Below, piece by piece: positions 11,952-50,107 of a stretch of 51,732 bases of DNA. Location of the stretch: contig CAZEKH010000006.1 of assembly GCA_964512925.1 (NCBI GenBank), positions 1 through 51,732 on the forward strand, given 5' to 3'. The position numbers were made by a program, and so were the translations under genes. The notes beneath the pieces are model-generated. The model was not told the DNA's origin and did no database searches. It was given only the letters and a program-made list of their open reading frames with translations. The DNA comes from an uncultured Candidatus Saccharibacteria bacterium. Its GTDB lineage: Bacteria > Patescibacteriota > Doudnabacteria > UBA920. Position 1 is the first letter of the stretch, and each line of letters starts with the position of its first letter.

Positions 11952-12066
11952 GTCATCCCGGAACCCGCCTTGGGCGGGTATCCGGGATCCAGGGTTAGTT
12001 GCTTAAACTTACGATATGATAATAAACTCCTGGATCCCGGCTCTCGTTTGACTCGGCCGGGATGAC
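11952..12066. repeat. Two-hairpin MITE-like element, empty copy, inverted relative to the 49487-49856 copy
   Basis: Left arm gtcatcccggaacccgccttgggcgggtatccgggatccaggg, 34-nt spacer, right arm cctggatcccggctctcgtttgactcggccgggatgaca. The termini TGTCATCCCGG / CCGGGATGACA are inverted repeats. Confidence 0.8.
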
Positions 12067-12129
12067 AGAGTGAAATATAAAATTACTATATTTATCTGTA
12101 TATCAGTATCAAATCAGTAATCATATATT

Positions 12130-13152
12130 ATGGATCGCAATTTAGCTTTAGAATTTGTACGCGTTACCGAAGCTGCGGCTATTGCTGCAAGCAGGTGGAT
12201 AGGCAAGGGCGAGGCCAAAAAAGCTGACGGAGCCGCGGTTAAAGAAATGCGCGCGCGTTTTAACCAGATAGATTTTCGCGGGGTAGTGGTTATAGGCGAA
12301 GGCGCCAAAGACGAAGCCCCGGAACTTTTTCAGGGTGAAAAAGTTGGGTCAGGCTGGCAGAACTCCCCTAACCCCTCTTTAGCAAAGAGGGGGAGCGCTG
12401 CTTTTGAGGATAAGCATAATACAAAATACATAATACAAAATACAAACACTTTCGACCTCGCCGTAGATCCTCTCGAATGCACTGACTCTGTTGCCTTCGG
12501 CCGCTACAACGCAATGTCAGTTATTGCCGCAGGAAGCAAGGGGAGTTTGCTTTCAGCCCCTGATACTTATATGGAAAAGATTGCCGCAGGGCCGAAAGCT
12601 TCTAAAGTAATTAGTTTAAACAAAACCCCAAAACAAAATATAGAAAATGTAGCCAAAGCACTTGGAAAAAAAGTTTCAGAAATTACAGTTTGTGTTTTAG
12701 ACCGCGAGAGGCATAAAAGTTTAATCGAACAAATAAGAAAAGCTGGGGCAAGAGTTCGTCTTATCACCGATGGTGATGTAGCCGGAGCCATAGCGACTTG
12801 TATGCCAGAAAGCGGGATTGATCTTTTAATGGGCATAGGTGCTTCAGCAGAAGCTGTTTTGGCAAGCGCAGCAATCCGAGCGCTCGGAGGACAGCTAGAG
12901 GCTCGCTTCAAGCCTAAAACTGAAGCTCATTCAATTTTAGTAAAAAAACAAGGCTTGTCCCTGACAAAAATTTACCAAGCAAGAGATTTGGTAAAGGGGA
13001 ATGTGTTAACTTTTACTGCCACTGGCATCATTGACGGCCCGCTTTTAAAGGGAGTGAGAACCTATGGTAATATAATAGAGACCCATTCTATCGTGATCCG
13101 GGCAAAAAGCGGAACAATTAGATATATTAATACTCAACATAGAACAAAATAA
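12130..13152 (+). CDS. glpX: Class II fructose-1,6-bisphosphatase (GlpX-type FBP/SBPase) with an in-frame insertion of about 28 aa
   Basis: LALEFVRVTEAAAIAASRWIGKG..ADGAAV, AVDPLECT, ITDGDVAGAI and GIGASAEAVLASAAIRALGG closely follow E. coli GlpX as I recall it. Confidence 0.9.
   Translation: MDRNLALEFVRVTEAAAIAASRWIGKGEAKKADGAAVKEMRARFNQIDFRGVVVIGEGAKDEAPELFQGEKVGSGWQNSPNPSLAKRGSAAFEDKHNTKYIIQNTNTFDLAVDPLECTDSVAFGRYNAMSVIAAGSKGSLLSAPDTYMEKIAAGPKASKVISLNKTPKQNIENVAKALGKKVSEITVCVLDRERHKSLIEQIRKAGARVRLITDGDVAGAIATCMPESGIDLLMGIGASAEAVLASAAIRALGGQLEARFKPKTEAHSILVKKQGLSLTKIYQARDLVKGNVLTFTATGIIDGPLLKGVRTYGNIIETHSIVIRAKSGTIRYINTQHRTK
12363..12395. repeat. Palindromic element copy inside glpX
   Basis: cccctcttt agc aaagagggg is a 9-bp perfect stem. 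It encodes NSPNPSLAKRGS. The same core occurs at 42263-42285. Confidence 0.7.
12415..12442 (+). repeat. 14-nt tandem direct repeat (2 copies plus a partial one) inside glpX
   Basis: cataatacaaaata occurs twice, followed by caaaca. It lies within the same insertion and encodes HNTKYIIQNTN. Confidence 0.8.
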
Positions 13153-13153
13153 T

Positions 13154-13675
13154 ATGTGGCATAATCATAGTATTAAGTCTTCTTCAGAGTTAGGGCACAA
13201 TGTTGAGTCTGGGTCAGTAGATTTAACTGATATGGGATGGTGGCTTAATGAGTTAAGACAAACACCACCCCAATTTTCAGAAGAAGAAATATCATATTTT
13301 TTTTATAAAAATATTGAACATAGAATAAGAGAATTTAAAAACACTTTAACCGAAGAACAGGCACTGGAGCATATTATCTCTGAATTAAAAGGTCAAGTAG
13401 AAATAACTTTTGAATTTAAGAAGCATTTGATTAGTTTAATTTCAAAAATTTATTCCGTGGATGCTAAAAGTTTTAAACAAACTAAAAGTGATGTTGAGAG
13501 TTCGGATTTAAATTTACAAATTCAAAAATATATAGAGTCATTAGTAGAAAAAAAAGAAATTCAGATAAATCGTAAATTAACTCAGCCGGAAGTTGAAGAA
13601 ATTAAAGACAAGTTGCGAGGGTATATTGTGGCTTTGTTGTTAGTTTCGTCAATAAATAATTATTTAAATTCTTAA
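13154..13675 (+). CDS. Hypothetical acidic helical protein
   Basis: ORF tightly packed between glpX (1-nt gap) and fba. No motif is recognised. Confidence 0.45.
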   Translation: MWHNHSIKSSSELGHNVESGSVDLTDMGWWLNELRQTPPQFSEEEISYFFYKNIEHRIREFKNTLTEEQALEHIISELKGQVEITFEFKKHLISLISKIYSVDAKSFKQTKSDVESSDLNLQIQKYIESLVEKKEIQINRKLTQPEVEEIKDKLRGYIVALLLVSSINNYLNS

Positions 13676-13684
13676 TATTTGTCC

Positions 13685-14734: not shown

Positions 14735-14829
14735 GCTTTTTACGGAATACGGAAAATCAGTACGGATATACGGAAAAAAACTACAAGTTAATTAATCCGT
14801 ATATCCGTAAGTATTCGTACTCCGTAAGG
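14735..14829. repeat. TACGGA-arm hairpin element, empty copy
   Basis: Left arm ctttttacggaatacggaaaatcagtacggatatacggaaaaa, about 18-nt spacer, right arm tccgtatatccgtaagtattcgtactccgtaagg. The arms are homologous to those flanking 15703..16095. Confidence 0.8.
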
Positions 14830-14871
14830 TTAAATCTTTAAATCAAAAATCATTAAATCTTAAATTAAAAA

Positions 14872-15645: not shown

Positions 15646-16137
15646 CTTTACGGAGTACGGAAAAGACAGTACGGATATACGGAAAAATAAAATTTTTTTA
15701 ATATGTCTGTAGAAACAAAAAAAGATTTGGTATTTTCTGAATTGAGCGGTAGAGTGATAGGGATTTTATTGGATGTATATAATCAATTGGGTTATGGTCA
15801 TCCTGAAAAAACCTACCAAAAAGCGCTATGTGTTGCTTTCAAAAAAGCCGGCATATCTTATGTTGAACAGCTTTATGTACCGGTAATTTTTGAAGAAAAA
15901 GTGGTAGGAAAAAACTATTTTGATTTTTTGATTGAAGATAAACTGGTGCTTGAAATAAAAAAAGGAGACTATTTTTCCAAAACCCACATTGACCAGGTAT
16001 ATAAATATCTTGTAAGTAAAAATTTAAAATTAGGAATATTGGCTTATTTCGCGCCTAGGACTGTACATTTAAAGCGAGTTGTAAATTTATACTAAATGTA
16101 TTTTCCGTATATCCGTAAATTTCCGTATTCCGTAAAG
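15646..16137 (+). mobile_element. TACGGA-arm hairpin element carrying a GxxExxY (PD-(D/E)XK-like) gene
   Basis: The arms ctttacggagtacggaaaagacagtacggatatacggaaaaa (15646-15687) and ttttccgtatatccgtaaatttccgtattccgtaaag (16101-16137) are inverted repeats that bracket the ORF. Confidence 0.7.
15703..16095 (+). CDS. GxxExxY family protein (PD-(D/E)XK nuclease-like fold)
   Basis: The signature GYGHPEKTYQKAL (G-x-x-E-x-x-Y) is present, followed by D..IEDKLVLEIK (D..E.K nuclease-like). Length is 130 aa. Confidence 0.8.
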   Translation: MSVETKKDLVFSELSGRVIGILLDVYNQLGYGHPEKTYQKALCVAFKKAGISYVEQLYVPVIFEEKVVGKNYFDFLIEDKLVLEIKKGDYFSKTHIDQVYKYLVSKNLKLGILAYFAPRTVHLKRVVNLY

Positions 16138-16145
16138 ATAACTTT

Positions 16146-17045: not shown

Positions 17046-17075
17046 ATAAAATTGAACAAAATTGAACAAAATTTA

Positions 17076-17119
17076 GACCAAAGAAAAAAGACCAATTGAC
17101 TGGTCTTTTTTCTTTGGTC
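17076..17119. terminator. Bidirectional terminator hairpin between tal and tRNA-Pro
   Basis: A perfect 19-bp stem gaccaaagaaaaaagacca / tggtcttttttctttggtc with a 6-nt loop. The 3' arm overlaps the encoded CCA end of the tRNA. Confidence 0.7.
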
Positions 17120-17188
17120 GGGATGCTGGGAATTGAACCCAGTCTACCTGCTCCCAAAGCAGGCGTACTACCGGTATACTACATCCCG
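17115..17188 (-). tRNA. tRNA-Pro (anticodon UGG), CCA encoded
   Basis: The minus strand reads CGGGATG-TA-GTATACCGGTAGTAC-G-CCTGC-TTTGGGA-GCAGG-TAGA-CTGGG-TTCAATT-CCCAG-CATCCCG-A-CCA. The cloverleaf has a 7-bp acceptor stem and a canonical T-loop. Confidence 0.9.
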
Positions 17189-17205
17189 AAAATTGATACC
17201 TGATG

Positions 17206-17234
17206 AGTTTAGCATCTAATTAGATTTTTGACAA
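17206..17234 (-). promoter_or_regulatory. Candidate sigma70 promoter for tRNA-Pro
   Basis: The minus strand reads TTGTCA-17 nt-TAAACT. The -10 ends 17 nt upstream of the mature tRNA 5' end. Confidence 0.5.
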
Positions 17235-17256
17235 ATAGGGGAGAATGTATTATAAT
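17228..17256 (+). promoter_or_regulatory. Consensus sigma70 promoter (TTGACA-17-TATAAT)
   Basis: The -35 is ttgaca at 17228-17233, the spacer is 17 nt and the -10 is tataat at 17251-17256. The -35 overlaps the divergent tRNA promoter -35. Confidence 0.6.
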
Positions 17257-17464
17257 CAGGTTATATTTAATATTTGAACTTTGATTTTTGCTTTTTATCC
17301 TATGTGTATAAAGTCTGAAGTTGTCCACAGGAGCTATAATCTAGCTTAAGTAAGCTAAAAAGTCTGTGTATAACTTTAGGCTTTTTATTTGTTTTTATAC
17401 TTACATTTTTTGTAACATTCCATATAAAAGCCCGTCTTTATTAACACTACAGTTATTGTGATTT

Positions 17465-17504
17465 CCGATTAACTGATTTACTGAATATCTGATTCACTAA
17501 CTGT
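17465..17504 (+). repeat. 5 x 8-nt tandem array (CTGATTNA)
   Basis: The units are ccgattaa ctgattta ctgaatat ctgattca ctaactgt, in noncoding DNA. Confidence 0.6.
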
Positions 17505-17510
17505 AATTTA

Positions 17511-17588
17511 CCCCGCACCAAAATTTCAAAGTATTAAAGGTTGCGCGGTAAAATTTCCCAAACCGAAATGTAAAGTTTTGGTGCGGGG
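17511..17588. repeat. Long-range inverted repeat / hairpin in noncoding DNA
   Basis: ccccgcaccaaaa (17511-17523) pairs perfectly with ttttggtgcgggg (17576-17588). The intervening sequence is 52 nt. Confidence 0.6.
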
Positions 17589-17886
17589 TTAACCTTATTT
17601 ATTGAGCCTTATGTTAAGGCAAGCCATCTATACAACTAAATATTGGTACACAAATGCCAGTCTTTGGATTGTTGGTCGATTTTTTGGCGTTTTTATAGTT
17701 GCCCCGGTTTTGTTACAAAACCGGACGCAGCCGTTTAGTCGAGACTTAAGAGTTCAATAAACATCGTTTTTGTCCGGTTTTTTACGACCTCTAGAGCGTA
17801 AAAGATTTAGGTCAAAAAAAGATGCCCAATTAATATTTTTTAGGCCAAAAATTGATTGTCTCAATTGAATAATCAATCGCCTAAAA

Positions 17887-21402: not shown

Positions 21403-21452
21403 TCTTATTGAAGAGGTTAGCGTTACCTAAAATTAATATTTAGGCTAAATTA

Positions 21453-39788: not shown

Positions 39789-40406
39789 ATGAGAGCTAAA
39801 AAATTGCACAAAATTTTGCTGATTGCTGGCCTGATTGCTTTAGCGGTTTCGGGCATAAAGCCCCACGATTACTTTACCTGGTTTTTGGAAGTCGCGCCGA
39901 CGCTTGTTGGGGTAGCGGTGATGCTTTTAACTTATAATAGATTTCCTTTGACCGATCTTTTGTATATCCTGATATTTATTCATTCCCTGATTTTAATGAT
40001 CGGCGGGCATTGGACTTACGCGGAAGTTCCGTGGTTTAACTATTTGCGGGATATCGGGATATTTGCCCGCAACAACTATGACAAGGTAGGACATTTTGCC
40101 CAGGGTTTTGTGCCATTTTTAATTGCGCGGGAAATTTTACTTAGAACCTCGCCTTTGAAAACCGGCAAGTGGCTGAATTTTTTATCGGTCTCGGTAGTTC
40201 TGGCGATCTCCGCTTTTTATGAGCTGGTGGAATGGTGGGTGTCTTTGCTTTCAGGTTCAAGCGGGGACGCTTTTTTGGGTACTCAGGGGTATGTCTGGGA
40301 TACGCAGTCGGATATGCTTTGGGCTTTGCTCGGGGCTTTAGTTTCAATGGCAATTTTGTCGAAATTGCATAACAAGCAGCTTTCAACACTAAAAGAAAAA
40401 ATATGA
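39789..40406 (+). CDS. DUF2238 (YjdF-like) inner membrane protein
   Basis: About six TM segments. The pattern DYFTWFLEVAPT...NYDKVGHFAQGF...YELVEW matches this family as I recall it. Confidence 0.6.
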   Translation: MRAKKLHKILLIAGLIALAVSGIKPHDYFTWFLEVAPTLVGVAVMLLTYNRFPLTDLLYILIFIHSLILMIGGHWTYAEVPWFNYLRDIGIFARNNYDKVGHFAQGFVPFLIAREILLRTSPLKTGKWLNFLSVSVVLAISAFYELVEWWVSLLSGSSGDAFLGTQGYVWDTQSDMLWALLGALVSMAILSKLHNKQLSTLKEKI

Positions 40407-41335
40407 AAATTTCGGTTTTTGGTTTGGGAAAAATGGGTATGCAGATAGCGAAGAGACTTCATTTAAACGGGTTTGAGGTATATGCCTGGAACAGAAGCGA
40501 AGGACCCAGGCAGGAATTTACGGATTATGTTAAGCAAAATCCTAAAGAGAATAGCCAGGCTTTTTCCAGTATGGATGATTTGTCCAAAGCAATGGGCGAA
40601 GGGCCGAGAGTTTTTTGGCTGATGCTGCTTCAGGAACTGGTGGAAGATTTTTTGTTTAAGCCGGAACTTTTGGGACGCTTGCTTAGGGAAGGCGATATTG
40701 TGATAGACGGCGGCAATAGTTTTTATAAAAATTCCATCAGGCGGGCTGAGGAATTGTCTAAAAAAAATATTATTTTTTTTGACGCCGGCGTGTCCGGAGG
40801 CATTTGGGGAGAAAAAAACGGTTTTGCTATTATGGCGGGCGGGGAGAAAAAAAATTGGCCGACTGTTGAGCCGATTTTTAAAACTTTGTCTTCGGGGAAG
40901 AATTACGGCCTGGTGGGCAAAGCCGGAGCCGGACATTTTGTCAAAATGGTGCATAACGGCATAGAGTACGGGATGATGGAAGCTATCGGCGAAGGTTATG
41001 CCGTGATGCAGGCTTCGCCTTTGGGGCTTGATCTTTTGGAAGTTACCAAGATATACCAGGAAGGCACGGTTATAAGGAGCTGGCTGATAGATTTAACGCG
41101 CAATATTTTTGAGTTTGAAGATGTAGAAAATACCAAAGGCGAGATCAATATGTTGGGGGAAGGGGAGTGGACCGTGGAAGCTGGCAAAGAGCTGGGTATA
41201 GATGTGCGGGTTTTGGAGGATAGCGTCAATGTGCGCAAAGAATCCAAGGATCCGAAAAATCAAAATAAGTTTTCCAACAAAATCGTGGCGCTACTAAGAA
41301 AACAGTTCGGCGGGCATTCCATAGTTAAGAAATAA
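40403..41335 (+). CDS. gnd: 6-phosphogluconate dehydrogenase, short (YqeC/GntZ-like) decarboxylating type
   Basis: The Rossmann motif is ISVFGLGKMGMQIA. DAGVSGGIWG, AGHFVKMVHNGIEYGMMEAIGEG and RSW are present. Confidence 0.85.
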   Translation: MKISVFGLGKMGMQIAKRLHLNGFEVYAWNRSEGPRQEFTDYVKQNPKENSQAFSSMDDLSKAMGEGPRVFWLMLLQELVEDFLFKPELLGRLLREGDIVIDGGNSFYKNSIRRAEELSKKNIIFFDAGVSGGIWGEKNGFAIMAGGEKKNWPTVEPIFKTLSSGKNYGLVGKAGAGHFVKMVHNGIEYGMMEAIGEGYAVMQASPLGLDLLEVTKIYQEGTVIRSWLIDLTRNIFEFEDVENTKGEINMLGEGEWTVEAGKELGIDVRVLEDSVNVRKESKDPKNQNKFSNKIVALLRKQFGGHSIVKK

Positions 41336-41382
41336 AATCATTATATAAATTATAAGTAAGATTGATATAGGAGAACAGAAAT

Positions 41383-41811
41383 ATGTTCGGAAATTTGATG
41401 GAGAGGCTGATGCCTGAACCAGAAAAGCCTGAAAAAAAAGAAAGTACTGAGGCAGATTTGGCAGAATATATAAAAAAATACCAAATAACTTATGAGCTGA
41501 GTGAGGATTCAGCGGTTACCCTTTGTTCGGTTTTGCCGGAGGGGAGTATAGATGAGTATCGCAGGGAAATCGCTATTGCGTTTGATGCTATTTTAAATAA
41601 GTTAAAGCTAGAGGGTTTGGTTTCCCAAACTTTGGAAGTTACCCGAAGTTATACATATGGCAAAAATGGCGGACCGGCAGTCAGATTTAAAATATTGGCA
41701 AAAGACAAAATAAGTCTGCTGCCTAGTATGGGTATAAATCAGTTGTCTGACAGAAAAGTTGTTGACGCTTCAATGTTTGTAAATGCCCACCAGCTGCCAG
41801 AAAAAGAATGA
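41383..41811 (+). CDS. Hypothetical protein
   Basis: ORF only. Its stop overlaps the next start (ATGA). Confidence 0.4.
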   Translation: MFGNLMERLMPEPEKPEKKESTEADLAEYIKKYQITYELSEDSAVTLCSVLPEGSIDEYRREIAIAFDAILNKLKLEGLVSQTLEVTRSYTYGKNGGPAVRFKILAKDKISLLPSMGINQLSDRKVVDASMFVNAHQLPEKE

Positions 41812-42449
41812 ATATTTATTCCAAGCAGGAAATAAAATTGTTTAAAAAATTGAACTCGGAGAAAAAGGTTCAGGATTTTTTAAATTCTTTAAAAATTAAT
41901 TTTGAAGAAAAAGGCGACACCTGTATGTCGCCACGCAGAGTCCTTGAAACAAAAAAAGCTCACTGTATGGAAGGGGCAATGCTGGCTGCGGCGGTTTTGG
42001 AATTTCATAAGCAAAAGCCTTATGTAATGGATTTAAGAAGCGCTGCGCACGATTTTGACCACGTGGTTTGCGTGTTTAAGCGGTTTGGCTGCTATGGCGC
42101 TGTGTCTAAAACCAATCACGCGGTTTTACGCTACCGCGAGCCGATATACAGAACGCTTCGGGAACTTGCCTTGTCTTACTTTCACGAATATTTTGACGAT
42201 GACGGCGAGAAAACTTTAAGGCAGTATTCCCGGCTTTTGGATTTAGGGCATTTTGATTTAGACCCCTTCTTTAACAAAGAGGGGGATGGGGGGAGTTGGA
42301 GGACAGCAAAACGGGATTTGTTTGAAATTCCCGAATACTTAGATACCATAAAACATTTTAACATCCTAACGCCCAAACAAATCAAAAACTTAAGGCCGGC
42401 TGATGATATTGAAATTCAGGCAGGAAAATTGGTTGAGTATACAGAATAA
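41808..42449 (+). CDS. Hypothetical protein, possible transglutaminase/papain-like Cys-His fold
   Basis: KAHCMEGAMLAA ... DHVVCVF suggests a Cys/His pair. The assignment is weak. Confidence 0.4.
   Translation: MNIYSKQEIKLFKKLNSEKKVQDFLNSLKINFEEKGDTCMSPRRVLETKKAHCMEGAMLAAAVLEFHKQKPYVMDLRSAAHDFDHVVCVFKRFGCYGAVSKTNHAVLRYREPIYRTLRELALSYFHEYFDDDGEKTLRQYSRLLDLGHFDLDPFFNKEGDGGSWRTAKRDLFEIPEYLDTIKHFNILTPKQIKNLRPADDIEIQAGKLVEYTE
42263..42285. repeat. Palindromic element copy inside the hypothetical CDS
   Basis: ccccttcttt aac aaagaggggg forms a 10-bp stem with one G.T pair. It encodes DPFFNKEGDGG. The core is as at 12372-12392. Confidence 0.6.
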
Positions 42450-42514
42450 CCTCTTATGGCATATAGGTGTTTGCAATATCAATCAACTTTAAGAGAATAA
42501 GTTTTGTGTAGATT

Positions 42515-42569
42515 CCCTCTCCGAACACGGAGAGGGTTAGAGCCTGCCCTGAGCTTGTCGAAGGGGTGA
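42515..42569. repeat. Palindromic element copy, intergenic (between convergent gene ends)
   Basis: The sequence is CCCTCTCCgaacacGGAGAGGGttagagcctgccctgagcttgtcgaaGGGGTGAGG. GTAG lies 3 nt upstream (42508-42511). Confidence 0.7.
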
Positions 42570-42673
42570 GGTAATAATATTTGGTTATTAAATAAAATTA
42601 TGTTTCATGGGAGAGGGAGTAAAACAGCTTCAATTTTTTTATAAATATTTTGAAGAGATGTGGAACGGGTAGG

Positions 42674-43804
42674 CTATTTAGGATTTTCTGAAATTATTTT
42701 TTTGTAATAGTCTAGATATTTGGGGACTATGTGGCTTGAGCAAAAAAGTTCGCAGGCGATCTTTTTTGCTTTTTCGCCCATTTCATTTCTAAGCGCCTGC
42801 TCTTCAGTTAGCCTTTTTATGCTTTTGGCAATGGATTTTATATCGCCGACTTTATGGAAAAAGGCGACTTGGTCCTTGTCTATTATCTCCGAAAGTCCGC
42901 CAGCTTTGGTTGCCACCACGGGCTTTTGGTAGCTTAAGACTTCCAAAATTCCCATCCCAAAACTTTCGTCTTTGGAAGTAAACACGCCGAAGTCCGAAGC
43001 GTTTATATAGTTTTGGATGTCTTTAATATTGTTTCTTATTACCAACTTATTTTTTAGCCGCAGTTTTTTTACCAATGGCAAAAAAGGTGAAAAATCGCTT
43101 CCGCCGAGAATCAAAAGTTTAAATTTGGGATTGTGTATTAAAGAAGCGGCTTTTAGTAAATCTGGAATTCTTTTTACAGGCCTTAAGTTTGAGAGGTGGA
43201 TAGCAGCGATATCATCATTTTTAATTTGTAAACTTTGACGTACTATTGCCCGGGACTTGGTAACTTTCGGCGGAGTATAAAAGTTGTGGATGATTTCAAT
43301 CGGTTTATCTGTTTTTAAAATAGAAATCGTTTGTCGTTTTAAAGTTTCTGAAACCGCAGTCACGCCGTCTGAGCGCTCTATGGAGTACTTGATAATTTCA
43401 AACAGCGCTGGGTCTTTGGCCAGAAGGGTAATGTCAGTGCCGTGCAGGGTGGTGATGATTTTAGGCAGGCGAATGTTGTTTTGCCTCATTATCCGTTTTG
43501 CTAAAAGCGCGGCCGTGGCGTGGGGGACTGCGTAGTGAACGTGGACAATGTCCAGATTGTATTTTTTTTGGACTTTTTCTATTTCTACTGCCAAAGGCAG
43601 GGTATAGTCCGGGTATTTAAAAAGCGTATATTCATTTATTTTGACTTGGTGGAAATAAATGTTTTTATTTTTCGGTAGCCTAAAAGGCGGCTCATAGGCG
43701 ATGAAATGCACCTGATGCCCCAGATTTGAAAGTTCAAAACCCAAATTTGTAGCCACCACGCCACTGCCTCCTACAGTCGGGTAACAGACAATACCTATTT
43801 TCAT
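42674..43804 (-). CDS. bshA: GT4 glycosyltransferase, BshA-type (N-acetyl-alpha-D-glucosaminyl L-malate synthase)
   Basis: The N-terminus MKIGIVCYPTVGGSGVVATNLGFELSNLGHQVHFI and the C-terminal E..FG...LE are typical of BshA. It lies in a cluster with a PIG-L deacetylase. Confidence 0.75.
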   Translation of the reverse strand: MKIGIVCYPTVGGSGVVATNLGFELSNLGHQVHFIAYEPPFRLPKNKNIYFHQVKINEYTLFKYPDYTLPLAVEIEKVQKKYNLDIVHVHYAVPHATAALLAKRIMRQNNIRLPKIITTLHGTDITLLAKDPALFEIIKYSIERSDGVTAVSETLKRQTISILKTDKPIEIIHNFYTPPKVTKSRAIVRQSLQIKNDDIAAIHLSNLRPVKRIPDLLKAASLIHNPKFKLLILGGSDFSPFLPLVKKLRLKNKLVIRNNIKDIQNYINASDFGVFTSKDESFGMGILEVLSYQKPVVATKAGGLSEIIDKDQVAFFHKVGDIKSIAKSIKRLTEEQALRNEMGEKAKKIACELFCSSHIVPKYLDYYKKIISENPK

Positions 43805-43863
43805 AGATCACAAATACATTAATAACACTAATAAAAATTTATATTTCCCTGCGCGTAGTTTTT

Positions 43864-43992
43864 TGTCATCCCAGAATTTTTATAGCTTTGTATTAAAAAT
43901 ATCTGGGATCTATGAGTTTGCATTTGCATCAAAGTTTAATGCTGTTTACACTGGATCCCGGATATCTCGCTTAGCGAGATTCCGGGATGACA
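43864..43992. repeat. Two-hairpin MITE-like element, empty and partly degenerate copy, between bshB and bshA
   Basis: Left arm tgtcatcccagaattttt...atatctgggatc (AT-rich, decayed). Right arm ctggatcccggatatctcgcttagcgagattccgggatgaca. Confidence 0.7.
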
Positions 43993-44009
43993 CAAGGAGT
44001 TTAAAATAT

Positions 44010-44708
44010 TTAGTAGTTTCTTGATGATAGGCTTAGGTCGGTCAAATTATGTATCCTTATAGGGTCGTTGGTCCAGAGGCCGATGGCGTATTTTACGCCA
44101 ATTGAAGCTCCCCAGGCTGCTGCTTTAGTTGAAACCAGATTCAGGTAGCCCTTGGTTTGCATCTGGCTTTGGTGAGCCTGCATTGCTTGTACCCAGGTTT
44201 CGTAATTGTCCGACACATCAATTATGATGTCCGGTTTTTGTCCCCACTCAGCGCGGGACGGATAGTAATAGAGTGAGGACACATTGTGGGTAGGTAAGTG
44301 CTTAAGTTCGCTTAAACCGCCATATCTTGCCAAGCGACAGGCGCTGTGAGCTATTTTCGCCACTTCATAGTGGTCAGGGTGCTGGTTATGCTGGTTTTCC
44401 GGGGCTAGCACAATATCGGGTTTGAATTTGCGTATTACTTCCGCAATCTTTATATTGTTTTCCGGCTTGTGCTCTATGTGGCAGTCGCCGCCCAGGTCTA
44501 AAAATTCTATATCCGAAACTCCGCAAATTTTTGCCGCTTCTATAGCTTCTTGTTTTCGGCTTTCCGGCGTGCCGTTTGAGCCGGCTTCGCCCAATGAGCA
44601 AACTAAATATTTTATTTGACTTCCTTTTTTGGCTTCCTTGACCATCAGCCCGCCCATGCCAAACTCAATATCATCCGGGTGGGCGCCTATAGCTAAAATT
44701 TGTGTCAT
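44010..44708 (-). CDS. bshB: PIG-L/LmbE family deacetylase, BshB-type
   Basis: AIGAHPDDIEFGMGG and HPDH motifs are present. It lies adjacent to bshA. Confidence 0.75.
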   Translation of the reverse strand: MTQILAIGAHPDDIEFGMGGLMVKEAKKGSQIKYLVCSLGEAGSNGTPESRKQEAIEAAKICGVSDIEFLDLGGDCHIEHKPENNIKIAEVIRKFKPDIVLAPENQHNQHPDHYEVAKIAHSACRLARYGGLSELKHLPTHNVSSLYYYPSRAEWGQKPDIIIDVSDNYETWVQAMQAHQSQMQTKGYLNLVSTKAAAWGASIGVKYAIGLWTNDPIRIHNLTDLSLSSRNY

Positions 44709-44747
44709 AAGATTGTAAATAGACTTTAGTGGTTAGTTTTCTTAAAA

Positions 44748-45647
44748 TTATAGATTGGGTAAATATGCTAATTCCTGGTTTTCGATTTGGTCTCTTTTGA
44801 TAAAATTAACTTCCGGGAAATCCTCCCTTTTTAAGTATTCGTATTCCGCGTTGCCGGTTATGTAGTGGGTAGAGTTGATGACTGAGTTCATCCAGGCAAA
44901 CCTTTGGTCGCGGCCTGGAGTTATTTGCGACTTTTCTATTTTATCATTTACTGAAAACTGGGTAAATTTGTCGCCGCCGTGGTGGAGTTCGGCTAGTTTA
45001 AGGCTAAGGGCACCCTCCTTCGCTGAAGCTATGGAGGACAAAAGGGGTGTAGGGTTTATAGAGGGGGCAGGGGAGGGGAGGATGCGGGCGCGGACGATTT
45101 CGTTTTCGTACAGTACATCCGCATAAAAATTCTCGGTTAAATCAGCCGCGTTGTTTCTAAAAGTTTTGTCCGAAGACCTAACTACTTCAATCCCGTCTAA
45201 GAGACCCAATTTTTGGTACATCTCCAGGCAAAAATCCGCCACGTTTGTCGCATTAACCGATTGAAAAATAGAAATGGGGTTCGCACCCTCTCCCTTAATC
45301 CCTCTCCCCTCGAGGGAGAGGGAAGGTTGGGGGGAGACAAAGCGGGGGAGTTGTTTTAGGATTTCTGCTTGCCAGCTAGCCGGTATCCTTTTTAAATACA
45401 GCGGGGAAAAGTTTTTTTGGATTTTATTTTCCTGGACAAAATTTAAGCGTACTTCCGCGCCGGTTTTTATGTCGTTTAAAACAGTTATGGTTTCTCTAAA
45501 GTCCGCGTCCGAGTCATGGTAAAAAAATATGATCTTGCCGCCGATTTGTTTTTGCAGGTTTTTGGCTGTATTGATCTTGGCCACCAAAAAGCGTTTGGGG
45601 AAAAATCCGCACGGTTGTTGGCCAAAACAAATAATAGGTTCTTGCAT
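44748..45647 (-). CDS. Compact BshC-like protein (putative bacillithiol cysteine-adding enzyme homolog) with palindromic-element insertions
   Basis: FGQQPCGFFPKRFLVAKINTA...IIFFYHDSDADFRE resembles the BshC segment GGQQAGLLTGPLYTIHK...IFWVAGEDHDLDE. ITGNAEYEYL resembles IAGPGEINYWGEL. At 299 aa it is far shorter than the roughly 540 aa of BshC. Confidence 0.45.
   Translation of the reverse strand: MQEPIICFGQQPCGFFPKRFLVAKINTAKNLQKQIGGKIIFFYHDSDADFRETITVLNDIKTGAEVRLNFVQENKIQKNFSPLYLKRIPASWQAEILKQLPRFVSPQPSLSLEGRGIKGEGANPISIFQSVNATNVADFCLEMYQKLGLLDGIEVVRSSDKTFRNNAADLTENFYADVLYENEIVRARILPSPAPSINPTPLLSSIASAKEGALSLKLAELHHGGDKFTQFSVNDKIEKSQITPGRDQRFAWMNSVINSTHYITGNAEYEYLKREDFPEVNFIKRDQIENQELAYLPNL
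45012..45042. repeat. Palindromic element copy (TTGTCCTCC..GAAGGAGG type) inside the bshC-like CDS
   Basis: The coding strand reads ttgtcctccatagcttcagcgaaggaggg and encodes LSSIASAKEG. Compare the tkt copy, which encodes LSSEASAKEG. Confidence 0.65.
45285..45335. repeat. Palindromic element copy inside the bshC-like CDS
   Basis: The sequence is caCCCTCTCCcttaatCCCTCTCCCctcgaGGGAGAGGGaaggttgggggg. On the coding strand it encodes SPQPSLSLEGRGIKGEG. Confidence 0.7.
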
Positions 45648-45697
45648 TAGGGTAGTATACCTTATTTAAACCTGCAAATCAACCAAATTTATGAAAT

Positions 45698-45726
45698 TTG
45701 ACTAATACCCCAGGGGGGTATATTAT
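45698..45726 (+). promoter_or_regulatory. csoR-copA promoter with a CsoR-type operator in the spacer
   Basis: TTGACT, 17-nt spacer, TATTAT. The spacer contains the GC-rich inverted repeat ATACCCCAGGGGGGTAT (45705-45721), which resembles known CsoR boxes (TACCC..GGGGGTA). Confidence 0.65.
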
Positions 45727-45766
45727 TATATTACAATTTTCAATTATTAATTTTACAATTTACAAA

Positions 45767-46033
45767 ATGCTTAAAAATAATAAGAACCTGTTAGTAAACA
45801 GATTAAAGAGAATAGAGGGGCAGGTTAGGGGGATTAGGAAAATGGTGGAAAACGGCAAATATTGCGTGGATATTTTAATTCAAAGCCTGGCTGTGGAAAA
45901 CTCCTTGGAGAGTTTTAACGCCCGGATGCTGGAAAATCATTTAAATGAACATGTAGCTCACCAGTTTATGCGCGGGCAGACCAAGAAAGCGGTCAAAGAA
46001 CTGCTAAAAATATATAACCTGGCAAATAAATAA
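45767..46033 (+). CDS. csoR: CsoR/RcnR-family metal-sensing repressor
   Basis: LVNRLKRIEGQVRGIRKMVENGKYCVDILIQ matches the family. Start taken as ATG 45767 because TTG 45698 is the promoter -35. Confidence 0.85.
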   Translation: MLKNNKNLLVNRLKRIEGQVRGIRKMVENGKYCVDILIQSLAVENSLESFNARMLENHLNEHVAHQFMRGQTKKAVKELLKIYNLANK

Positions 46034-46066
46034 GAGCGGAATTTTTAAATATTCTAAATATTGATT

Positions 46067-48427
46067 ATGGGGGTTCAAAATAAACAATTTAATGTTCAGG
46101 GTATGCACTGTTCTTCTTGCGGCGCAATTATTAAACGCACTTTGCAGAAACAAGAGGGTGTGGTTTCGTGCGAAGTAAATTATGCTACTGAAACAGCAAA
46201 TATTAGTTTTGACGAAACAAAAATTTCACCGAAAAAAATGTCGGAAAAAATTCAGCCTTTGGGATATAGTTTAAAACTGCCGAATAGCAATTCCTCTAAA
46301 GACCTCTCTTCAAAAGGAGAGGGGGGAAAGCATATTATGCCGGATGGCAGTGTTATGTCGGCCGGAGACCATAGCGCGCATTTGGGACTTAGCCAGACTA
46401 AAGAAGAAAAGTTACTAGAGCTAAAAGAGCAGAAACAAAAAGTTGAATTTGTTTTGCCTTTGGCGTTTTTGGTTTTTATTTTGATGCTTTGGGAAATTGC
46501 CGGCAATTTTTTTGATATTATCCCAAAGTTTTTTTTGCCGATGGATTTATATAATCCTGTTTTATTTGTTTTATCTACCTTGGTGCTATTTTGGGCTGGG
46601 AAGCAATTTTTACTGGGGGTTTGGCGATTTATCCGCTTTGGCGCTGCCAATATGGATACCCTGGTGGGGATCGGCACTTTGACAGCGTATATTTATAGCG
46701 GGATTTTGGTTTTATTTCCCGGAGTTAAGGTCAAGCTGAACTTGCCTGAATTGGTGTTTTTTGACGTGACTATCGTGGTAATTGGGTTTATTGTTTTGGG
46801 AAAATTTTTAGAAATGCGCTCTAAGCTAAAAACCAGCGAAGCCATAGAAAAATTGTTAGGCCTCCAGGCTAAAACGGCGCTGGTGCTTCAAGCAGGCAAA
46901 GAAATTGAACTGCCGATTGACTTGGTTAAAATAGGGGATTTGATAATAGTCAAGCCTGGAGGCAGGCTAGCGGTTGACGGAGTTATTGTTGAAGGTAAAT
47001 CTTCTGTGGACGAGAGTATGATAACCGGCGAACCTATGCCCGTAGGTAAAAATATCGGCGACAAGGTTGTTGGGGGTACGATAAACAAACAGGGAAGCTT
47101 TGTAATGCGCGCGGAAAAAGTTGGCAAAGAAACTCTGCTTAGTCAAATTATAAAAATGGTGGAAAATGCACAAGGGAGTAAAGCGCCTATAGAAGAATTG
47201 GCAGATAAAATTTCCGCTGTGTTTGTGCCTGTGGTTTTGGGTATTTCCTTGTTATCGTTATTGTTATGGTTATTTTTTGCGCCAAGGTTTGTTCCATTTG
47301 ACCAGGCGTTGTCTTTGGGAATTTTGTGCTTTGTCAGCGTTTTAGTGATTGCTTGCCCGTGCGCTTTGGGACTTGCCACTCCCACTGCTATTATTGCGGG
47401 CGTGGGCAAAGGCGCGTCTTTGGGTATACTTATAAAAAATGCGGAAAGTTTGCAACATTTGGCAAGTATTGACACATTGGTTATAGACAAGACAGGTACA
47501 CTGACTTATGGAAGACCAGAGGTTGTAGATCAATTTAAAATTGAAAATTTAAAAATAAAAAAAATAAGTAGTCTGCAAATAGCTGCGAGTTTAGAAAAAA
47601 AATCCGAACATCCTTTGGCTGAGGCTTTTGTGAATAAAGCTAAAGAAGACAAAGCAGAAATTGTAGAAGCTACGGAGTTTGAAAATTTAGAAGGCCGGGG
47701 AGTGAAAGGTAAGGTGTTAGGCGAAATATATTTTGTCGGCAGCCCAAAACTTGCCGAGGAATTAAAAATAAAGATTGATGTTGAAAAAGTTAGCGCATTT
47801 ACAAAACAGGGAAAGACCCCTGTGCTTTTAATGTCAAAAACAGAACTTTTGGCGATTTTTGCCGTGGCTGACAAGCCGAAAGAAAATGCCAAAGACAGTA
47901 TTGAGATTTTGCATAAGCTGGGTATAAAAGTTGTGATGTTAACCGGGGACAACAGGCAAACAGCCGAGTATGTTGCGCAAAGTTTAGGTATAGACAAAAT
48001 ATTTGCTGAAATGCTGCCGGCTGAAAAAGCACAAAAAATTCAAGAACTGCAAAAGCAGGGCCTTCTGGTTGCTATGGCCGGCGACGGGATCAATGATGCG
48101 CCGGCTTTGGCTCAGGCAAATGTGGGGATGGCTATGGGCAGCGGAACCGATGTGGCAATTGAAACCGCTGATCTAACTTTACTATATGGCGATATTGGAA
48201 AAATCGCGCTGGCAATCCGACTTTCAAGGCTGACTATGCGCATTGTTAAACAAAATTTGTTTTGGGCTTTTAGCTACAATATCATTGGTATACCTTTGGC
48301 GGCTGGGATTTTTTTCCCGCTATTTGGCTGGCTCTTAAACCCGGCGTTTGCCGGCCTGGCTATGGCTCTAAGTTCGGTAATGGTGGTAAGTAACTCCCTG
48401 AGGCTGAAGCGGATAAATTTGCTATAA
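46067..48427 (+). CDS. copA: Copper-translocating P1B-type ATPase
   Basis: The N-terminal HMA motif is GMHCSSCG. TGEP, CPCALGLATP, DKTGTLT and GDGINDAP are present. An alternative TTG start lies at 46061. Confidence 0.95.
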   Translation: MGVQNKQFNVQGMHCSSCGAIIKRTLQKQEGVVSCEVNYATETANISFDETKISPKKMSEKIQPLGYSLKLPNSNSSKDLSSKGEGGKHIMPDGSVMSAGDHSAHLGLSQTKEEKLLELKEQKQKVEFVLPLAFLVFILMLWEIAGNFFDIIPKFFLPMDLYNPVLFVLSTLVLFWAGKQFLLGVWRFIRFGAANMDTLVGIGTLTAYIYSGILVLFPGVKVKLNLPELVFFDVTIVVIGFIVLGKFLEMRSKLKTSEAIEKLLGLQAKTALVLQAGKEIELPIDLVKIGDLIIVKPGGRLAVDGVIVEGKSSVDESMITGEPMPVGKNIGDKVVGGTINKQGSFVMRAEKVGKETLLSQIIKMVENAQGSKAPIEELADKISAVFVPVVLGISLLSLLLWLFFAPRFVPFDQALSLGILCFVSVLVIACPCALGLATPTAIIAGVGKGASLGILIKNAESLQHLASIDTLVIDKTGTLTYGRPEVVDQFKIENLKIKKISSLQIAASLEKKSEHPLAEAFVNKAKEDKAEIVEATEFENLEGRGVKGKVLGEIYFVGSPKLAEELKIKIDVEKVSAFTKQGKTPVLLMSKTELLAIFAVADKPKENAKDSIEILHKLGIKVVMLTGDNRQTAEYVAQSLGIDKIFAEMLPAEKAQKIQELQKQGLLVAMAGDGINDAPALAQANVGMAMGSGTDVAIETADLTLLYGDIGKIALAIRLSRLTMRIVKQNLFWAFSYNIIGIPLAAGIFFPLFGWLLNPAFAGLAMALSSVMVVSNSLRLKRINLL
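46303..46322. repeat. Palindromic element-like hairpin inside the copA MBD-TM linker
   Basis: cctctctt caaa aggagagg forms an 8-bp stem with one G.T pair. It encodes DLSSKGEG. Confidence 0.45.
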
Positions 48428-48438
48428 TATAAGCACAT

Positions 48439-49476
48439 ATGAATGAAACTAATCTTTGGATAATATTTACAACCGGACTTTTAACCGGCGGCCTGTCTTG
48501 CCTGGCGGTTCAGGGCGGGTTGCTTGCTGCAACCATAGCTCAAAGGGAAGAGGAAAAGGCTACTCAGAAAGATAAAAGTATAAAAAGCGCAGCATTGCCG
48601 GTTTTGGCTTTTTTAATAGCTAAGCTTGTTGCTTATACGGCTTTAGGCTTGCTCTTGGGTTGGTTTGGCTCTTTGTTTGAGTTGTCATTATCTGTAAAGA
48701 TAGTTATGCAGTTTGTGGTGGTTATGTTTATGCTGGGCACGGCTATGGCAATCTTAGACGTACATCCTTTTTTCAGATATTTTATTATCCAGCCGCCGAA
48801 GTTTATAACGCGAAAAATAAAAAATATTTCAAGATCACGGGATGTTTTCGCGCCGGCTTTTTTGGGCGCGTTTACAGTGTTTATTCCTTGCGGCACGACT
48901 CAAGCAATGATGGTTTTAGCTATAGCTTCAGGAAATCCTTTTTTGGGGGCCGCTATTATGTTTGCTTTTGTTTTAGGCACCAGCCCGCTGTTTTTTATTT
49001 TTGGCTTTCTAGCAACCCGTCTTGGCGAGGTAATGCAGAAAAAGTTTTTTCGCCTGGCCGCGTTTGCCATCATCCTTTTAGCGGTCTTTAATTTAAACAA
49101 TGCTATTGCTTTAACCGGGGCTAAGTGGACGCCCGCCAATATTGCCAAATCTGTTTTTTGCGGCGTTGCGTATTGTACTGAGCAAAATTCCATTTCAAAT
49201 CTGAAAGTTGTAACAGAACAGACAATAATAATAGAAAATAATGGTTATAGTCCAAGAAATTTTACAGTCAAAGCCGGAAGCGAGGTAAAGTTGACGCTTG
49301 TAAACAAAGGCGGATTTTCCTGCGCCCAGGCTTTTACCATCCCAAGTCTAAATATCCAAAAAATAGTTATTCCAAATACTACGGACTCTTTAACTTTTAT
49401 TGCGCCAAAAGAAAAAGGCCAACTGGCCTTTATGTGCAGTATGGGTATGTATAGAGGGACTATCAATGTAAATTAA
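48439..49476 (+). CDS. DsbD_2/TauE-like polytopic membrane protein fused to a C-terminal cupredoxin-like domain
   Basis: TGGLSCLAVQGGLL and several TM segments are present. The C-terminal beta-sandwich is FTVKAGSEVKLTLVN...LAFMCSMGMYRGTINV. Confidence 0.65.
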   Translation: MNETNLWIIFTTGLLTGGLSCLAVQGGLLAATIAQREEEKATQKDKSIKSAALPVLAFLIAKLVAYTALGLLLGWFGSLFELSLSVKIVMQFVVVMFMLGTAMAILDVHPFFRYFIIQPPKFITRKIKNISRSRDVFAPAFLGAFTVFIPCGTTQAMMVLAIASGNPFLGAAIMFAFVLGTSPLFFIFGFLATRLGEVMQKKFFRLAAFAIILLAVFNLNNAIALTGAKWTPANIAKSVFCGVAYCTEQNSISNLKVVTEQTIIIENNGYSPRNFTVKAGSEVKLTLVNKGGFSCAQAFTIPSLNIQKIVIPNTTDSLTFIAPKEKGQLAFMCSMGMYRGTINVN

Positions 49477-49486
49477 ATAAATTGTC

Positions 49487-49856
49487 TGTCATCCCGGCCT
49501 TGAGCCGGGATCCAGGGTTATATGCAAAACGAATATTATGTATACATCCTTGCAAACAAAAGAAACGGAACACTGTATGTGGGAGTGACCAATGACTTAA
49601 TAAGAAGAGTTTATGAACATAAAAATGATTTAATAGAAGGCTTTACTAAAAAGTACCAGATACATACTTTAGTCTATTTTAAAAATACAGGAAACATAGA
49701 AAGCGCAATAAACAGAGAAAAACAGTTAAAAAGATGGCAAAGACAATGGAAAATATCCCTCATTGAACAACAAAATCCGCAGTGGAATGATTTATACTCT
49801 AACTTGACTTAACCCTGGATCCCAGATATCCGCCTAAGGCGGATTCCGGGATGACA
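49487..49856 (+). mobile_element. Two-hairpin element carrying a GIY-YIG nuclease gene
   Basis: Left hairpin tgtcatcccggccttgagccgggatccaggg (49487-49517). Right hairpin ccctggatcccagatatccgcctaaggcggattccgggatgaca (49813-49856). The ORF fills the interval between them exactly. Confidence 0.75.
49522..49812 (+). CDS. GIY-YIG nuclease family protein (YhbQ/UPF0213-like)
   Basis: YYVYIL...GTLYVGVTNDL.RRV.EH and E.A...EKQLK.W.R..K are present. Length is 96 aa. Confidence 0.9.
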   Translation: MQNEYYVYILANKRNGTLYVGVTNDLIRRVYEHKNDLIEGFTKKYQIHTLVYFKNTGNIESAINREKQLKRWQRQWKISLIEQQNPQWNDLYSNLT

Positions 49857-50106: not shown

Positions 50107-50107
50107 T

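What the first reader, a model, noticed from the sequence alone, without database searches (positions are those of the whole stretch)
11952..49856. Two-hairpin element family: two empty copies and one copy carrying a GIY-YIG nuclease gene exactly between the hairpins
Three loci share the architecture TGTCATCCCGG-loop-CCGGGATCCAGGG ... CCCTGGATCCC(R)GATA-stem/loop-TTCCGGGATGACA. They are 11952-12066 (inverted orientation, 34-nt spacer), 43864-43992 (left hairpin decayed, 40-nt spacer) and 49487-49856. In the third, a 96-aa GIY-YIG ORF (49522-49812) begins 4 nt after the left hairpin and its stop abuts the right hairpin. All three sit between co-directional genes of operon-like arrays: tkt|glpX, bshB|bshA and cupredoxin-membrane gene|copZ. 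This looks like an autonomous/non-autonomous (MITE-like) pair, with the GIY-YIG enzyme as the candidate mobilising or homing nuclease. Alternatively, a structured-RNA cassette may have captured the gene.
Basis: partly seen in the sequence, partly recalled or inferred. Interest (0 to 1): 0.7.

Follow-up and report, generated by a model that had tools for sequence, protein, structure and literature searches.

The report
Ssn ssDNA nuclease with hairpin repeats
The three loci are real, but they belong to a system published in 2025: a small GIY-YIG nuclease (Ssn) that cuts single-stranded DNA next to a specific hairpin repeat, found here in a Patescibacteria-like genome with one gene-carrying hairpin pair and two gene-less pairs.

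Summary
The window holds six copies of one oriented hairpin motif (YGTCAT, 8-bp palindrome ATCCCGG(A/C), loop or nested stem, then C-CAG). They form three outward-facing pairs, all in the 6.6% of the window that is non-coding. One pair encloses an intact 96-aa GIY-YIG gene. The other two enclose 35-nt spacers.

This is the Ssn/SRM system of Chenal et al. 2025 (PMC11893778). The protein is 54% identical (E 4e-38) to the Neisseria gonorrhoeae SsnA ortholog, and the three residues shown there to be needed for cleavage are conserved. All six hairpins carry the GTC and the post-palindrome C that the paper found critical for cleavage and binding.

Across 207 loci from many phyla, outward-facing pairs dominate. 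Their spacing is bimodal: about 20-80 nt (empty) or about 300 nt (ssn). In two other genomes the empty pairs share leader and trailer sequence with the loaded one, so they are gene-less versions of the same unit.

Mobility and its mechanism remain unproven. There are no target-site duplications, and Ssn is a hydrolytic nuclease that does not cut double-stranded DNA. The hairpins are not terminators.

Verdict: a new member of a known kind, of moderate interest.

The parts
11952..11993 (+). SRM hairpin A-left, long type: GTCAT, then ATCCCGGA/TCCGGGAT lower stem with nested CCCGCC/GGCGGG upper stem, then C-CAGGG
11994..12028 (.). 35-nt AT-rich spacer of empty pair A (equivalent to an RS element)
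12029..12066 (-). SRM hairpin A-right (reads GTCATCCCGGCCGAGTCAAACGAGAGCCGGGATCCAGG on the - strand). The same CTCTCG..ACTCGG loop type occurs in Saccharibacteria and Marinicauda loci
43865..43914 (+). SRM hairpin B-left, long type with compensatory CCCAGA/TCTGGG and an AT-rich upper stem; the tail is C-TATG instead of C-CAGG
43915..43949 (.). 35-nt spacer of empty pair B; weakly similar to the reverse complement of spacer A (p about 0.008)
43950..43991 (-). SRM hairpin B-right, long type (upper stem TCTCGC/GCGAGA)
49487..49517 (+). SRM hairpin C-left, short type: TGTCATCCCGGCCTTGAGCCGGGATCCAGGG
49522..49812 (+). ssn gene: 96-aa single-domain GIY-YIG nuclease, 54% identical to the Neisseria gonorrhoeae SsnA ortholog; Y8, Y19 and E66 align with the catalytic residues Y6, Y17 and E64
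49813..49856 (-). SRM hairpin C-right, long type (on the - strand: TGTCATCCCGGAATCCGCCTTAGGCGGATATCTGGGATCCAGGG); one position of the lower stem forms a G-T pair on the - strand

Best explanation
The loci are one Ssn/SRM module plus two gene-less SRM pairs.

The enzyme. ORF 49522-49812 encodes an Ssn-family enzyme: a roughly 95-aa single-domain GIY-YIG nuclease that acts only on single-stranded DNA. By analogy with SsnA of Neisseria and Wolbachia, it should bind each hairpin when that strand is single-stranded. Recognition would use the palindrome sequence, the GTC just 5' of it and the C just 3' of it. It should then hydrolyse the strand a few nucleotides 5' of YGTCAT.

Predicted geometry. 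In every pair the GTCAT ends face outward, one hairpin on each strand. The predicted cuts therefore fall just outside the pair, at its 5' edge on each strand, and only one cut per strand is possible.

The pairs. SRM(+), a slot, then SRM(-) is the standard unit of this repeat family across phyla. The slot holds either the ssn ORF or a 20-80-nt spacer. Gene-less pairs are ORF-less versions of the loaded unit, comparable to dRS3-RS-dRS3 units of Neisseria NIMEs or to REPINs next to RAYT genes.

Shown here: sequence anatomy, homology to SsnA, conserved catalytic and recognition positions, the orientation rule, bimodal spacing, and the loaded/empty relationship in two other genomes.

Inferred: the enzymatic activity of this particular protein, the cut positions, a role in processing incoming or replicative single-stranded DNA in this Patescibacteria-like host, and spread by recombination or horizontal transfer rather than by transposase chemistry.
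For: Protein identity:
- Pfam GIY-YIG, E 7.5e-14, 96 aa, single domain.
- A tblastn hit in two N. gonorrhoeae chromosomes at a single site. The 94-aa ORF there has Y6, Y17 and E64, exactly as in the published SsnA mutants.
- Pairwise comparison gives 54% identity, E 4e-38, no gaps, with Y8/Y19/E66 aligned.
- The published work shows cleavage of single-stranded DNA only, 5' of the NTS, with GTC and the post-palindrome C critical, and loop extensions tolerated. All six window hairpins have GTC and that C.

Flanking hairpins in relatives:
- Homologs in Doudnabacteria, Planktothrix and Rhizobium show the same flanking arrangement. The Planktothrix hairpin is almost the canonical Neisseria NTS.
- Of 72 homologous genes from metagenomes, 50 have an outward hairpin upstream, 48 downstream and 40 on both sides.

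Pair statistics over 207 loci:
- Neighbouring pairs: (+,-) 158, (-,+) 48, (-,-) 30, (+,+) 25.
- (+,-) gaps cluster at 20-80 nt and at 290-400 nt.

Loaded versus empty: empty pairs share the leader and trailer of the loaded unit in Rhizobium sp. CIAT894 and in Methylococcaceae (34 of 36 nt).
Against:
- The published degenerate SRM search pattern finds 0 hits in the window. Membership of the hairpins therefore rests on shared features, not on the authors' own pattern.
- CDD family cd10448, which defines the family in the paper, could not be checked.
- In Neisseria itself the hairpins next to ssnA face inward, the opposite of the arrangement here. The geometry argument may therefore not carry over.
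- The biological role outside Neisseria is unknown, as the paper itself says.
Confidence: 0.8

Rival explanations
1. This is an active autonomous/non-autonomous transposon pair, with Ssn acting as the enzyme that excises and reinserts both the loaded element and the empty pairs in trans (a MITE- or REPIN/RAYT-type system).
For: - The ends are inverted repeats, and loaded and empty versions of one unit exist.
- Within genomes, empty pairs form families with conserved spacers, as in L010, L022, L073 and L083.
- The syntenic tkt|glpX junction in three related lineages lacks the pair.
- Only 1 of 126 related Rhizobium plasmids carries the ssn region.
- Ssn is about 70% identical across phyla, whereas the best GlpX relative is 73% identical within the phylum. 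A 94%-identical Ssn exists with no matching close GlpX relative.
- The paper itself raises the analogy with insertion sequences and REP elements.
Against: - There are no target-site duplications: 1.77 against a null of 1.70 +/- 0.10.
- By established knowledge, GIY-YIG enzymes hydrolyse DNA and form no covalent intermediate, so they cannot carry out strand transfer alone.
- The outward orientation gives only one cleavable site per strand, unlike IS200/IS605, where both ends are cut on the same strand.
- In arrays the sequence outside the pairs is repeated too, which fits tandem or recombinational amplification rather than transposition.
- No precise strain-level empty site was found.
Confidence: 0.25
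2. The GIY-YIG gene is a free-standing homing endonuclease gene that invaded a pre-existing hairpin pair by cutting the empty allele.
For: - The gene fills exactly the slot between the hairpins.
- The shared leader and trailer of loaded and empty units fit insertion as well as deletion.
- GIY-YIG is a classic homing endonuclease fold.
Against: - The protein is a bare 96-aa catalytic domain with no DNA-binding domain.
- Published relatives do not cut double-stranded DNA.
- There are no homologs in 50,697 phage records.
- The match to the group I intron endonuclease model scores 23 bits against a cutoff of 56.
- The predicted cut sites lie outside the pair, not in the slot.
Confidence: 0.08
3. 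The hairpins are ordinary transcription terminators or mRNA-stabilising or processing structures of this genome, and the gene lies next to them by coincidence.
For: All three loci lie between co-directional genes and would be transcribed. The hairpins are stable.
Against: - None is followed by a T-tract, and none appears among the 17 terminator-like sites scanned in 40000-51732.
- No Rfam family matches.
- The same motif flanks homologous genes in unrelated phyla.
- The conserved unpaired GTCAT and C-CAG have no role in termination.
- SsnA does not bind RNA.
Confidence: 0.04

Closest known systems
Ssn nucleases with their SRM/NTS hairpin repeats (SsnA NMB0047/NMV_0044 of Neisseria meningitidis; Chenal et al. 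2025, PMC11893778)
   Same: - A roughly 95-aa single-domain GIY-YIG protein, 54% identical to the gonococcal ortholog, with the catalytic Y, Y and E conserved.
- Hairpins with GTCAT on the 5' side and C-YRG on the 3' side.
- The gene is flanked by hairpins on both sides.
- Extra hairpins are dispersed in intergenic DNA.
   Different: - The palindrome is ATCCCGG rather than ATTCCCGC.
- Four of the six hairpins carry a nested upper stem.
- The published SRM search pattern finds none of them.
- The host is Patescibacteria-like, a group not mentioned in the paper.
- The hairpins face outward here but inward next to Neisseria ssnA.
- Activity is untested.
Neisserial intergenic mosaic elements (NIMEs: dRS3-RS-dRS3 units; PMC1797815)
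   Same: The two empty pairs are two inverted hairpin repeats enclosing a short AT-richer spacer, like an isolated dRS3-RS-dRS3 unit. Arrays of such units occur in the Rhizobium and Methylococcaceae loci.
   Different: In the window the units are isolated, not in arrays. NIMEs were described in 2007 as specific to Neisseria.
REPIN/RAYT systems (REP doublets with an IS200/IS605-like Y1 transposase)
   Same: A single-copy nuclease gene is flanked by inverted hairpin repeats, with many gene-less inverted doublets in intergenic DNA and no target-site duplication. In both cases the enzyme acts on hairpins in single-stranded DNA.
   Different: The enzyme is a hydrolytic GIY-YIG nuclease, not an HUH/Y1 transposase, so no covalent intermediate and no known strand-transfer chemistry are available.
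GIY-YIG homing endonucleases (I-TevI, I-BmoI, phage Seg proteins)
   Same: The catalytic fold.
   Different: There is no DNA-binding domain, no intron or phage context and no phage homologs. The target is single-stranded rather than double-stranded DNA.

Membership tests
Ssn nuclease family (cd10448, Chenal 2025) | Single-domain GIY-YIG protein of about 94 aa | tested here: met
   96 aa; PF01541 covers residues 5-77; no other domain
Ssn nuclease family (cd10448, Chenal 2025) | BLAST homology to Neisseria SsnA at E < 1e-10 (the paper's criterion) | tested here: met
   Compared with the N. gonorrhoeae ortholog rather than the N. meningitidis protein: tblastn E 4e-27; blastp 54% identity, E 4e-38
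Ssn nuclease family (cd10448, Chenal 2025) | Catalytic residues Y6, Y17 and E64 of SsnA conserved | tested here: met
   Y8, Y19 and E66 align without gaps
Ssn nuclease family (cd10448, Chenal 2025) | Assignment to CDD family cd10448 or placement in the Ssn clade | not testable with these tools
   No CDD library is available. The protein is only weakly similar to UPF0213 structures (1ZG2, E 0.0045), which fits a separate family
Ssn nuclease family (cd10448, Chenal 2025) | Sequence-specific cleavage of single-stranded DNA only | not testable with these tools
   Requires purified protein
SRM / NTS hairpin repeats | Match to the published pattern HGTCWYN(0-2)YYVSBRHN(0-5)WNVSBRGN(0-2)RNCYNB | tested here: not met
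   0 hits in the window. The same implementation finds 9 in the Neisseria locus and 6 in the Rhizobium locus. Only 261 of 617 hairpins found by my feature-based rule match the pattern
SRM / NTS hairpin repeats | Oriented hairpin: GTC immediately 5' of the palindrome, C immediately 3', 20-50 nt long, flanking an ssn gene on both sides | tested here: met
   All six hairpins; lengths 29-50 nt; locus C is flanked on both sides
MITE / classical transposon | Target-site duplication flanking terminal inverted repeats | tested here: not met
   158 pairs: best direct repeat 1.77 against a null of 1.70 +/- 0.10
REPIN/RAYT or IS200/IS605 | HUH/Y1 transposase gene | tested here: not met
   The enclosed gene is GIY-YIG only
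GIY-YIG homing endonuclease | C-terminal DNA-binding domain and an intron or phage context | tested here: not met
   96 aa with no extra domain; TIGR01453 scores 23 bits against a cutoff of 56; no phage hits
Intrinsic terminator | GC-rich stem followed by a T-tract | tested here: not met
   Loci B and C are absent from the terminator-like sites scanned in 40000-51732; no T-tract follows locus A in the sequence

The most novel reading that the evidence does not exclude
Outward-facing SRM pairs, with or without the ssn ORF, are a self-propagating repeat system that spreads between phyla, a counterpart of REPIN/RAYT. It would be driven by a hydrolytic nuclease specific for single-stranded DNA rather than by an HUH transposase. 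Gene-less pairs would be non-autonomous derivatives that spread by a recombination- or replication-coupled route, and the system would reach candidate-phyla bacteria that depend on DNA uptake.
Probability: 0.35. Interest if true: 0.65.

Novelty: new member of a known kind. Interest (0 to 1): 0.35.

Why it matters
This places the recently described Ssn/SRM system in a Patescibacteria-like genome and shows that the published SRM search pattern misses a large share of real sites (356 of the 617 found here).

It also adds three general rules that bear on the open question of whether the system is a mobile or domesticated element:
- The hairpins usually form outward-facing pairs.
- The slot between them holds either the nuclease gene or a short spacer.
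- In at least two genomes, empty pairs are gene-less versions of the loaded unit.

Each new Ssn/hairpin pair is also a candidate reagent for site-specific cutting of single-stranded DNA.

Tried and rejected
- Rfam, at gathering and permissive thresholds: no relevant family.
- PDB sequence search: only weak UPF0213 hits and spurious repeat-protein hits.
- Contig look-ups for the window's own protein and for its 94%-identical relative: not on record. The cluster look-up gave no names, so the source organism of the 94% relative is unknown.
- Supplementary files of the Ssn paper are not held. The N. meningitidis sequence itself was therefore unavailable, and the gonococcal ortholog was used instead.
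- Full-text search for the motif strings returned only cloning primers.
- Are the window's spacers remnants of the ssn ORF? Not significant (B against C, p 0.16).
- Strain-level empty site in Rhizobium plasmids: related plasmids lack the whole ssn region, but the intergenic DNA is not alignable, so no precise boundary could be defined.
- Duplicate ssn copies in L185 and L188: the similarity extends beyond the hairpins in L188, so unit boundaries could not be defined.
- Target-site duplication: absent.
- Terminator reading: rejected.
- Phage origin: no hits.
Full report
**Observation**

The three loci exist as described. Each consists of two hairpins on opposite strands. Read 5' to 3' on its own strand, every hairpin is YGTCAT, an 8-bp palindrome arm ATCCCGG(A/C), a loop or a nested second stem, the complementary arm ending GGGAT, and then C followed by CAG(G).

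- GTCATCCCGG with up to 1 mismatch occurs 9 times against 1.37 expected (0 of 100 shuffles reach 9). Six of the nine are the element ends, and the other three lie inside genes.
- The inner motif is also enriched, 13 against 3.7 expected.
- As single-stranded DNA, loci A and B fold with z-scores of -7.7 and -6.6.
- Non-coding DNA makes up 6.6% of the window, yet all six hairpins lie in it.
- The ORF in locus C (49522-49812) starts 4 nt after the left hairpin, and its stop codon abuts the right one.

Two details need correcting. The left hairpin of locus B is not decayed: it is a long-type hairpin with compensatory changes in the lower stem (CCCAGA/TCTGGG) and an AT-rich upper stem. The orientation of locus A relative to C is ambiguous, because hairpin types suggest inversion while the inner flanks match in the same orientation.

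**What the gene is**

The ORF is a bare GIY-YIG domain of 96 aa. It has more than 8000 relatives at about 70% identity in metagenomes, named where named as Doudnabacteria, Portnoybacteria, Patescibacteria, Dehalococcoidales, Chloroflexi and Planktothrix.

Homologs in a Doudnabacteria contig and in Planktothrix have the same flanking arrangement. The Planktothrix hairpin, GTCATTCCCGCGAAGGCGGGAATCCA, is almost the Neisseria dRS3/NTS repeat.

A literature search then found Chenal et al. 2025 (PMC11893778). That paper reports the following:
- SsnA of N. meningitidis (94 aa, CDD cd10448) binds the NTS hairpin CGTCATTCCCGCGMAVGCGGGAATCYRG only as single-stranded DNA and cuts a few nucleotides upstream of it.
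- It has no activity on double-stranded DNA, on RNA or on the reverse strand.
- Y6A, Y17A and E64A mutants lose cleavage.
- Extensions at the loop are tolerated.
- Homologs across bacteria are flanked by "Ssn-related motifs" (SRM): 71% have at least one and 42% have one on both sides.
- In Neisseria the enzyme lowers transformation by DNA that carries NTS.

**Membership test**

Two N. gonorrhoeae chromosomes are present in the plasmid collection (the records are titled as plasmids although each is about 2.17 Mb). Each gave a single tblastn hit. The ORF there is 94 aa with Y6, Y17 and E64.

The window protein aligns with it without gaps at 54% identity, E 4e-38, with Y8, Y19 and E66 in register. 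All six window hairpins have GTC before the palindrome and C after it.

The authors' degenerate SRM pattern finds none of them. My implementation of that pattern does recover the Neisseria, Rhizobium, Planktothrix and Doudnabacteria sites, but it matches only 261 of the 617 hairpins found by a feature-based rule. The window's sites therefore belong to a part of SRM diversity that the published pattern misses: the stem reads GGC or GGA where the pattern requires a purine, or the loop is longer than 5 nt.

CDD assignment and enzyme activity could not be tested.

**Wider survey**

These came from Alpha- and Gammaproteobacteria, Wolbachia, Rickettsia, Sphingomonas, Saccharibacteria, Microgenomates, Daviesbacteria, Azambacteria and others. 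A metagenome scan returned 80 loci with homologous genes.

Results from these loci:
- Of 72 genes with enough flanking DNA, 50 have an outward-facing hairpin within 150 nt upstream, 48 have one downstream, and 40 have both.
- Over all 207 loci (1.27 Mb, 609 hairpins), neighbouring hairpins within 600 nt are (+,-) 158 times, (-,+) 48, (-,-) 30 and (+,+) 25 times.
- At spacings up to 100 nt, (+,-) outnumbers (-,+) by 105 to 30.
- The (+,-) gaps are bimodal: 97 below 80 nt, with the most populated bin at 20-40 nt, and 40 at 290-400 nt, which is the ssn ORF.
- The spacers almost always begin with CAG and end with CTG, and many are themselves partly palindromic.
- The base before GTCAT is C or T in 92% of hairpins. 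There is no target-site duplication.

One caveat applies. The first set of loci was selected for having a hairpin and the second for having the gene, so the ratio of loaded to empty pairs is not a natural frequency.

**Loaded versus empty**

In Rhizobium sp. CIAT894 plasmid e, a loaded unit is followed by two empty pairs. Both share its 17-nt leader and its roughly 38-nt trailer, and about 25 nt replaces the ORF.

In a Methylococcaceae contig, the empty pair shares 34 of the 36 inner-flank positions with the loaded unit. A second Methylococcaceae genome has the same empty pair.

In those arrays the sequence outside the pairs is repeated as well, as in Neisseria NIME arrays (PMC1797815). The pattern therefore fits recombinational amplification as well as it fits transposition.

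In the window itself the signal is weak:
- A against C inner flanks: 22 of 36 (null 99th percentile 20).
- B against C: not significant.
- Spacer A (reverse complement) against spacer B: p about 0.008.

**Evidence on mobility**

- The gene order metK-tkt-glpX-fba is conserved in the three nearest available lineages, whose GlpX is about 72% identical to the window's.
- None of the three has a hairpin pair upstream of glpX. One has a 50-bp tkt|glpX spacer, one has a bAvd-like gene between tkt and glpX, and one has lost tkt from this position.
- Only 1 of 126 related Rhizobium plasmids carries the ssn region, and two that were examined have no hairpins there.
- Ssn is about 70% identical between phyla, and one relative is 94% identical. 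The window's GlpX has no relative above 73%.

These points fit gain, loss and horizontal transfer. No precise strain-level empty site was found.

**Mechanism**

By homology, the enzyme should cut each strand once, just outside the pair at its 5' edge. This differs from IS200/IS605, where both ends are cut on the same strand. By established knowledge, a GIY-YIG hydrolase forms no covalent intermediate.

I therefore favour an Ssn/SRM module that acts on single-stranded DNA, either incoming or exposed during replication. The pairs would be maintained or amplified by recombination and horizontal transfer. An active transposon is a weaker possibility, not excluded.

The other readings are poorly supported:
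- Homing is unlikely: there is no DNA-binding domain, published relatives do not cut double-stranded DNA, and there are no phage homologs.
- A terminator or RNA role is unlikely: there are no T-tracts, the hairpins are not among the terminator-like sites, no Rfam family matches, and SsnA does not bind RNA.

**Verdict**

The system was published in 2025, so this is a new member of a known kind, found in a Patescibacteria-like genome.

The outward-pair rule, the bimodal slot and the ORF-less derivatives are modest additions. They make the REPIN-like hypothesis testable.

Noticed in passing
L129:3626-3955 and L129:6845-7204; L126:5042-5452 and L126:7575-7937: In relatives, small bAvd / 23S-rRNA-intervening-sequence-protein genes (PF05635/PF22296) sit between conserved glycolytic genes. 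One occupies the tkt|glpX slot that holds the empty hairpin pair in the window. This looks like a second class of small intergenic hitch-hiker in these genomes.
   Followed up: no
L211:600-2230 (N. gonorrhoeae chromosome, record titled as a plasmid): Around gonococcal ssnA the NTS hairpins form arrays. The two hairpins immediately next to the gene face inward (-,+), the opposite of the outward (+,-) arrangement seen in 40 of 72 metagenomic homologs and in the window.
   Followed up: partly
L212:1943-2878 (Rhizobium sp. CIAT894 plasmid): A loaded ssn unit is followed by two empty pairs in a tandem array with a 271-bp period, next to an IS4 transposase. Related plasmids lack the whole block.
   Followed up: partly
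window 12029-12066; L023:5468-5573; L073:3277-3374 and 6477-6590: The loop sequence GGCTCTCGTTT(G/C)ACTCGGCC of hairpin A-right recurs almost unchanged in a Marinicauda (Alphaproteobacteria) locus. The loop type, CTCTC..(A/T)TCGG, also appears in a Saccharibacteria locus. Loop conservation across phyla is unexpected if only the stem and flanks matter.
   Followed up: no
L001:2910-2954: The Doudnabacteria loaded unit has an extra long-type hairpin in tandem just upstream of the usual left hairpin, again next to a transketolase gene.
   Followed up: no
window 21561-29717: A 2718-aa ORF with SpvB, FG-GAP, RHS-repeat, DUF2341 and Laminin_G_3 domains looks like a giant RHS/toxin-like surface protein. 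It is followed by a 107-aa ORF, and a Fic-domain protein lies further downstream at 30942-31997.
   Followed up: no
window 17046-17886: The longest non-coding stretch of the window (841 bp) holds a single tRNA gene on the minus strand (17118-17188). The remaining 700 bp or so is unexplained.
   Followed up: no
window 45698-50106: The loaded ssn unit sits inside a copper-handling cluster: CsoR-type repressor, CopA P-type ATPase, DsbD_2-cupredoxin membrane protein, [ssn], CopZ. It is co-oriented with these genes and is probably co-transcribed with them.
   Followed up: partly
window 3580-7903: Adjacent ORFs carry dockerin (3580-4923) and cohesin (5846-7903) domains, suggesting a cohesin-dockerin surface assembly in a small-genome bacterium.
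   Followed up: no
window 11949-12069: The minimum-energy single-strand fold of empty pair A is not two local hairpins. It is a long cross-paired stem (outer GTCATCCCGG with the distal CCGGGATGAC, inner CCGGGATCCAGG with CCTGGATCCCGG) with the nested stem as a branch. Pairs can therefore switch between two conformations.
   Followed up: no
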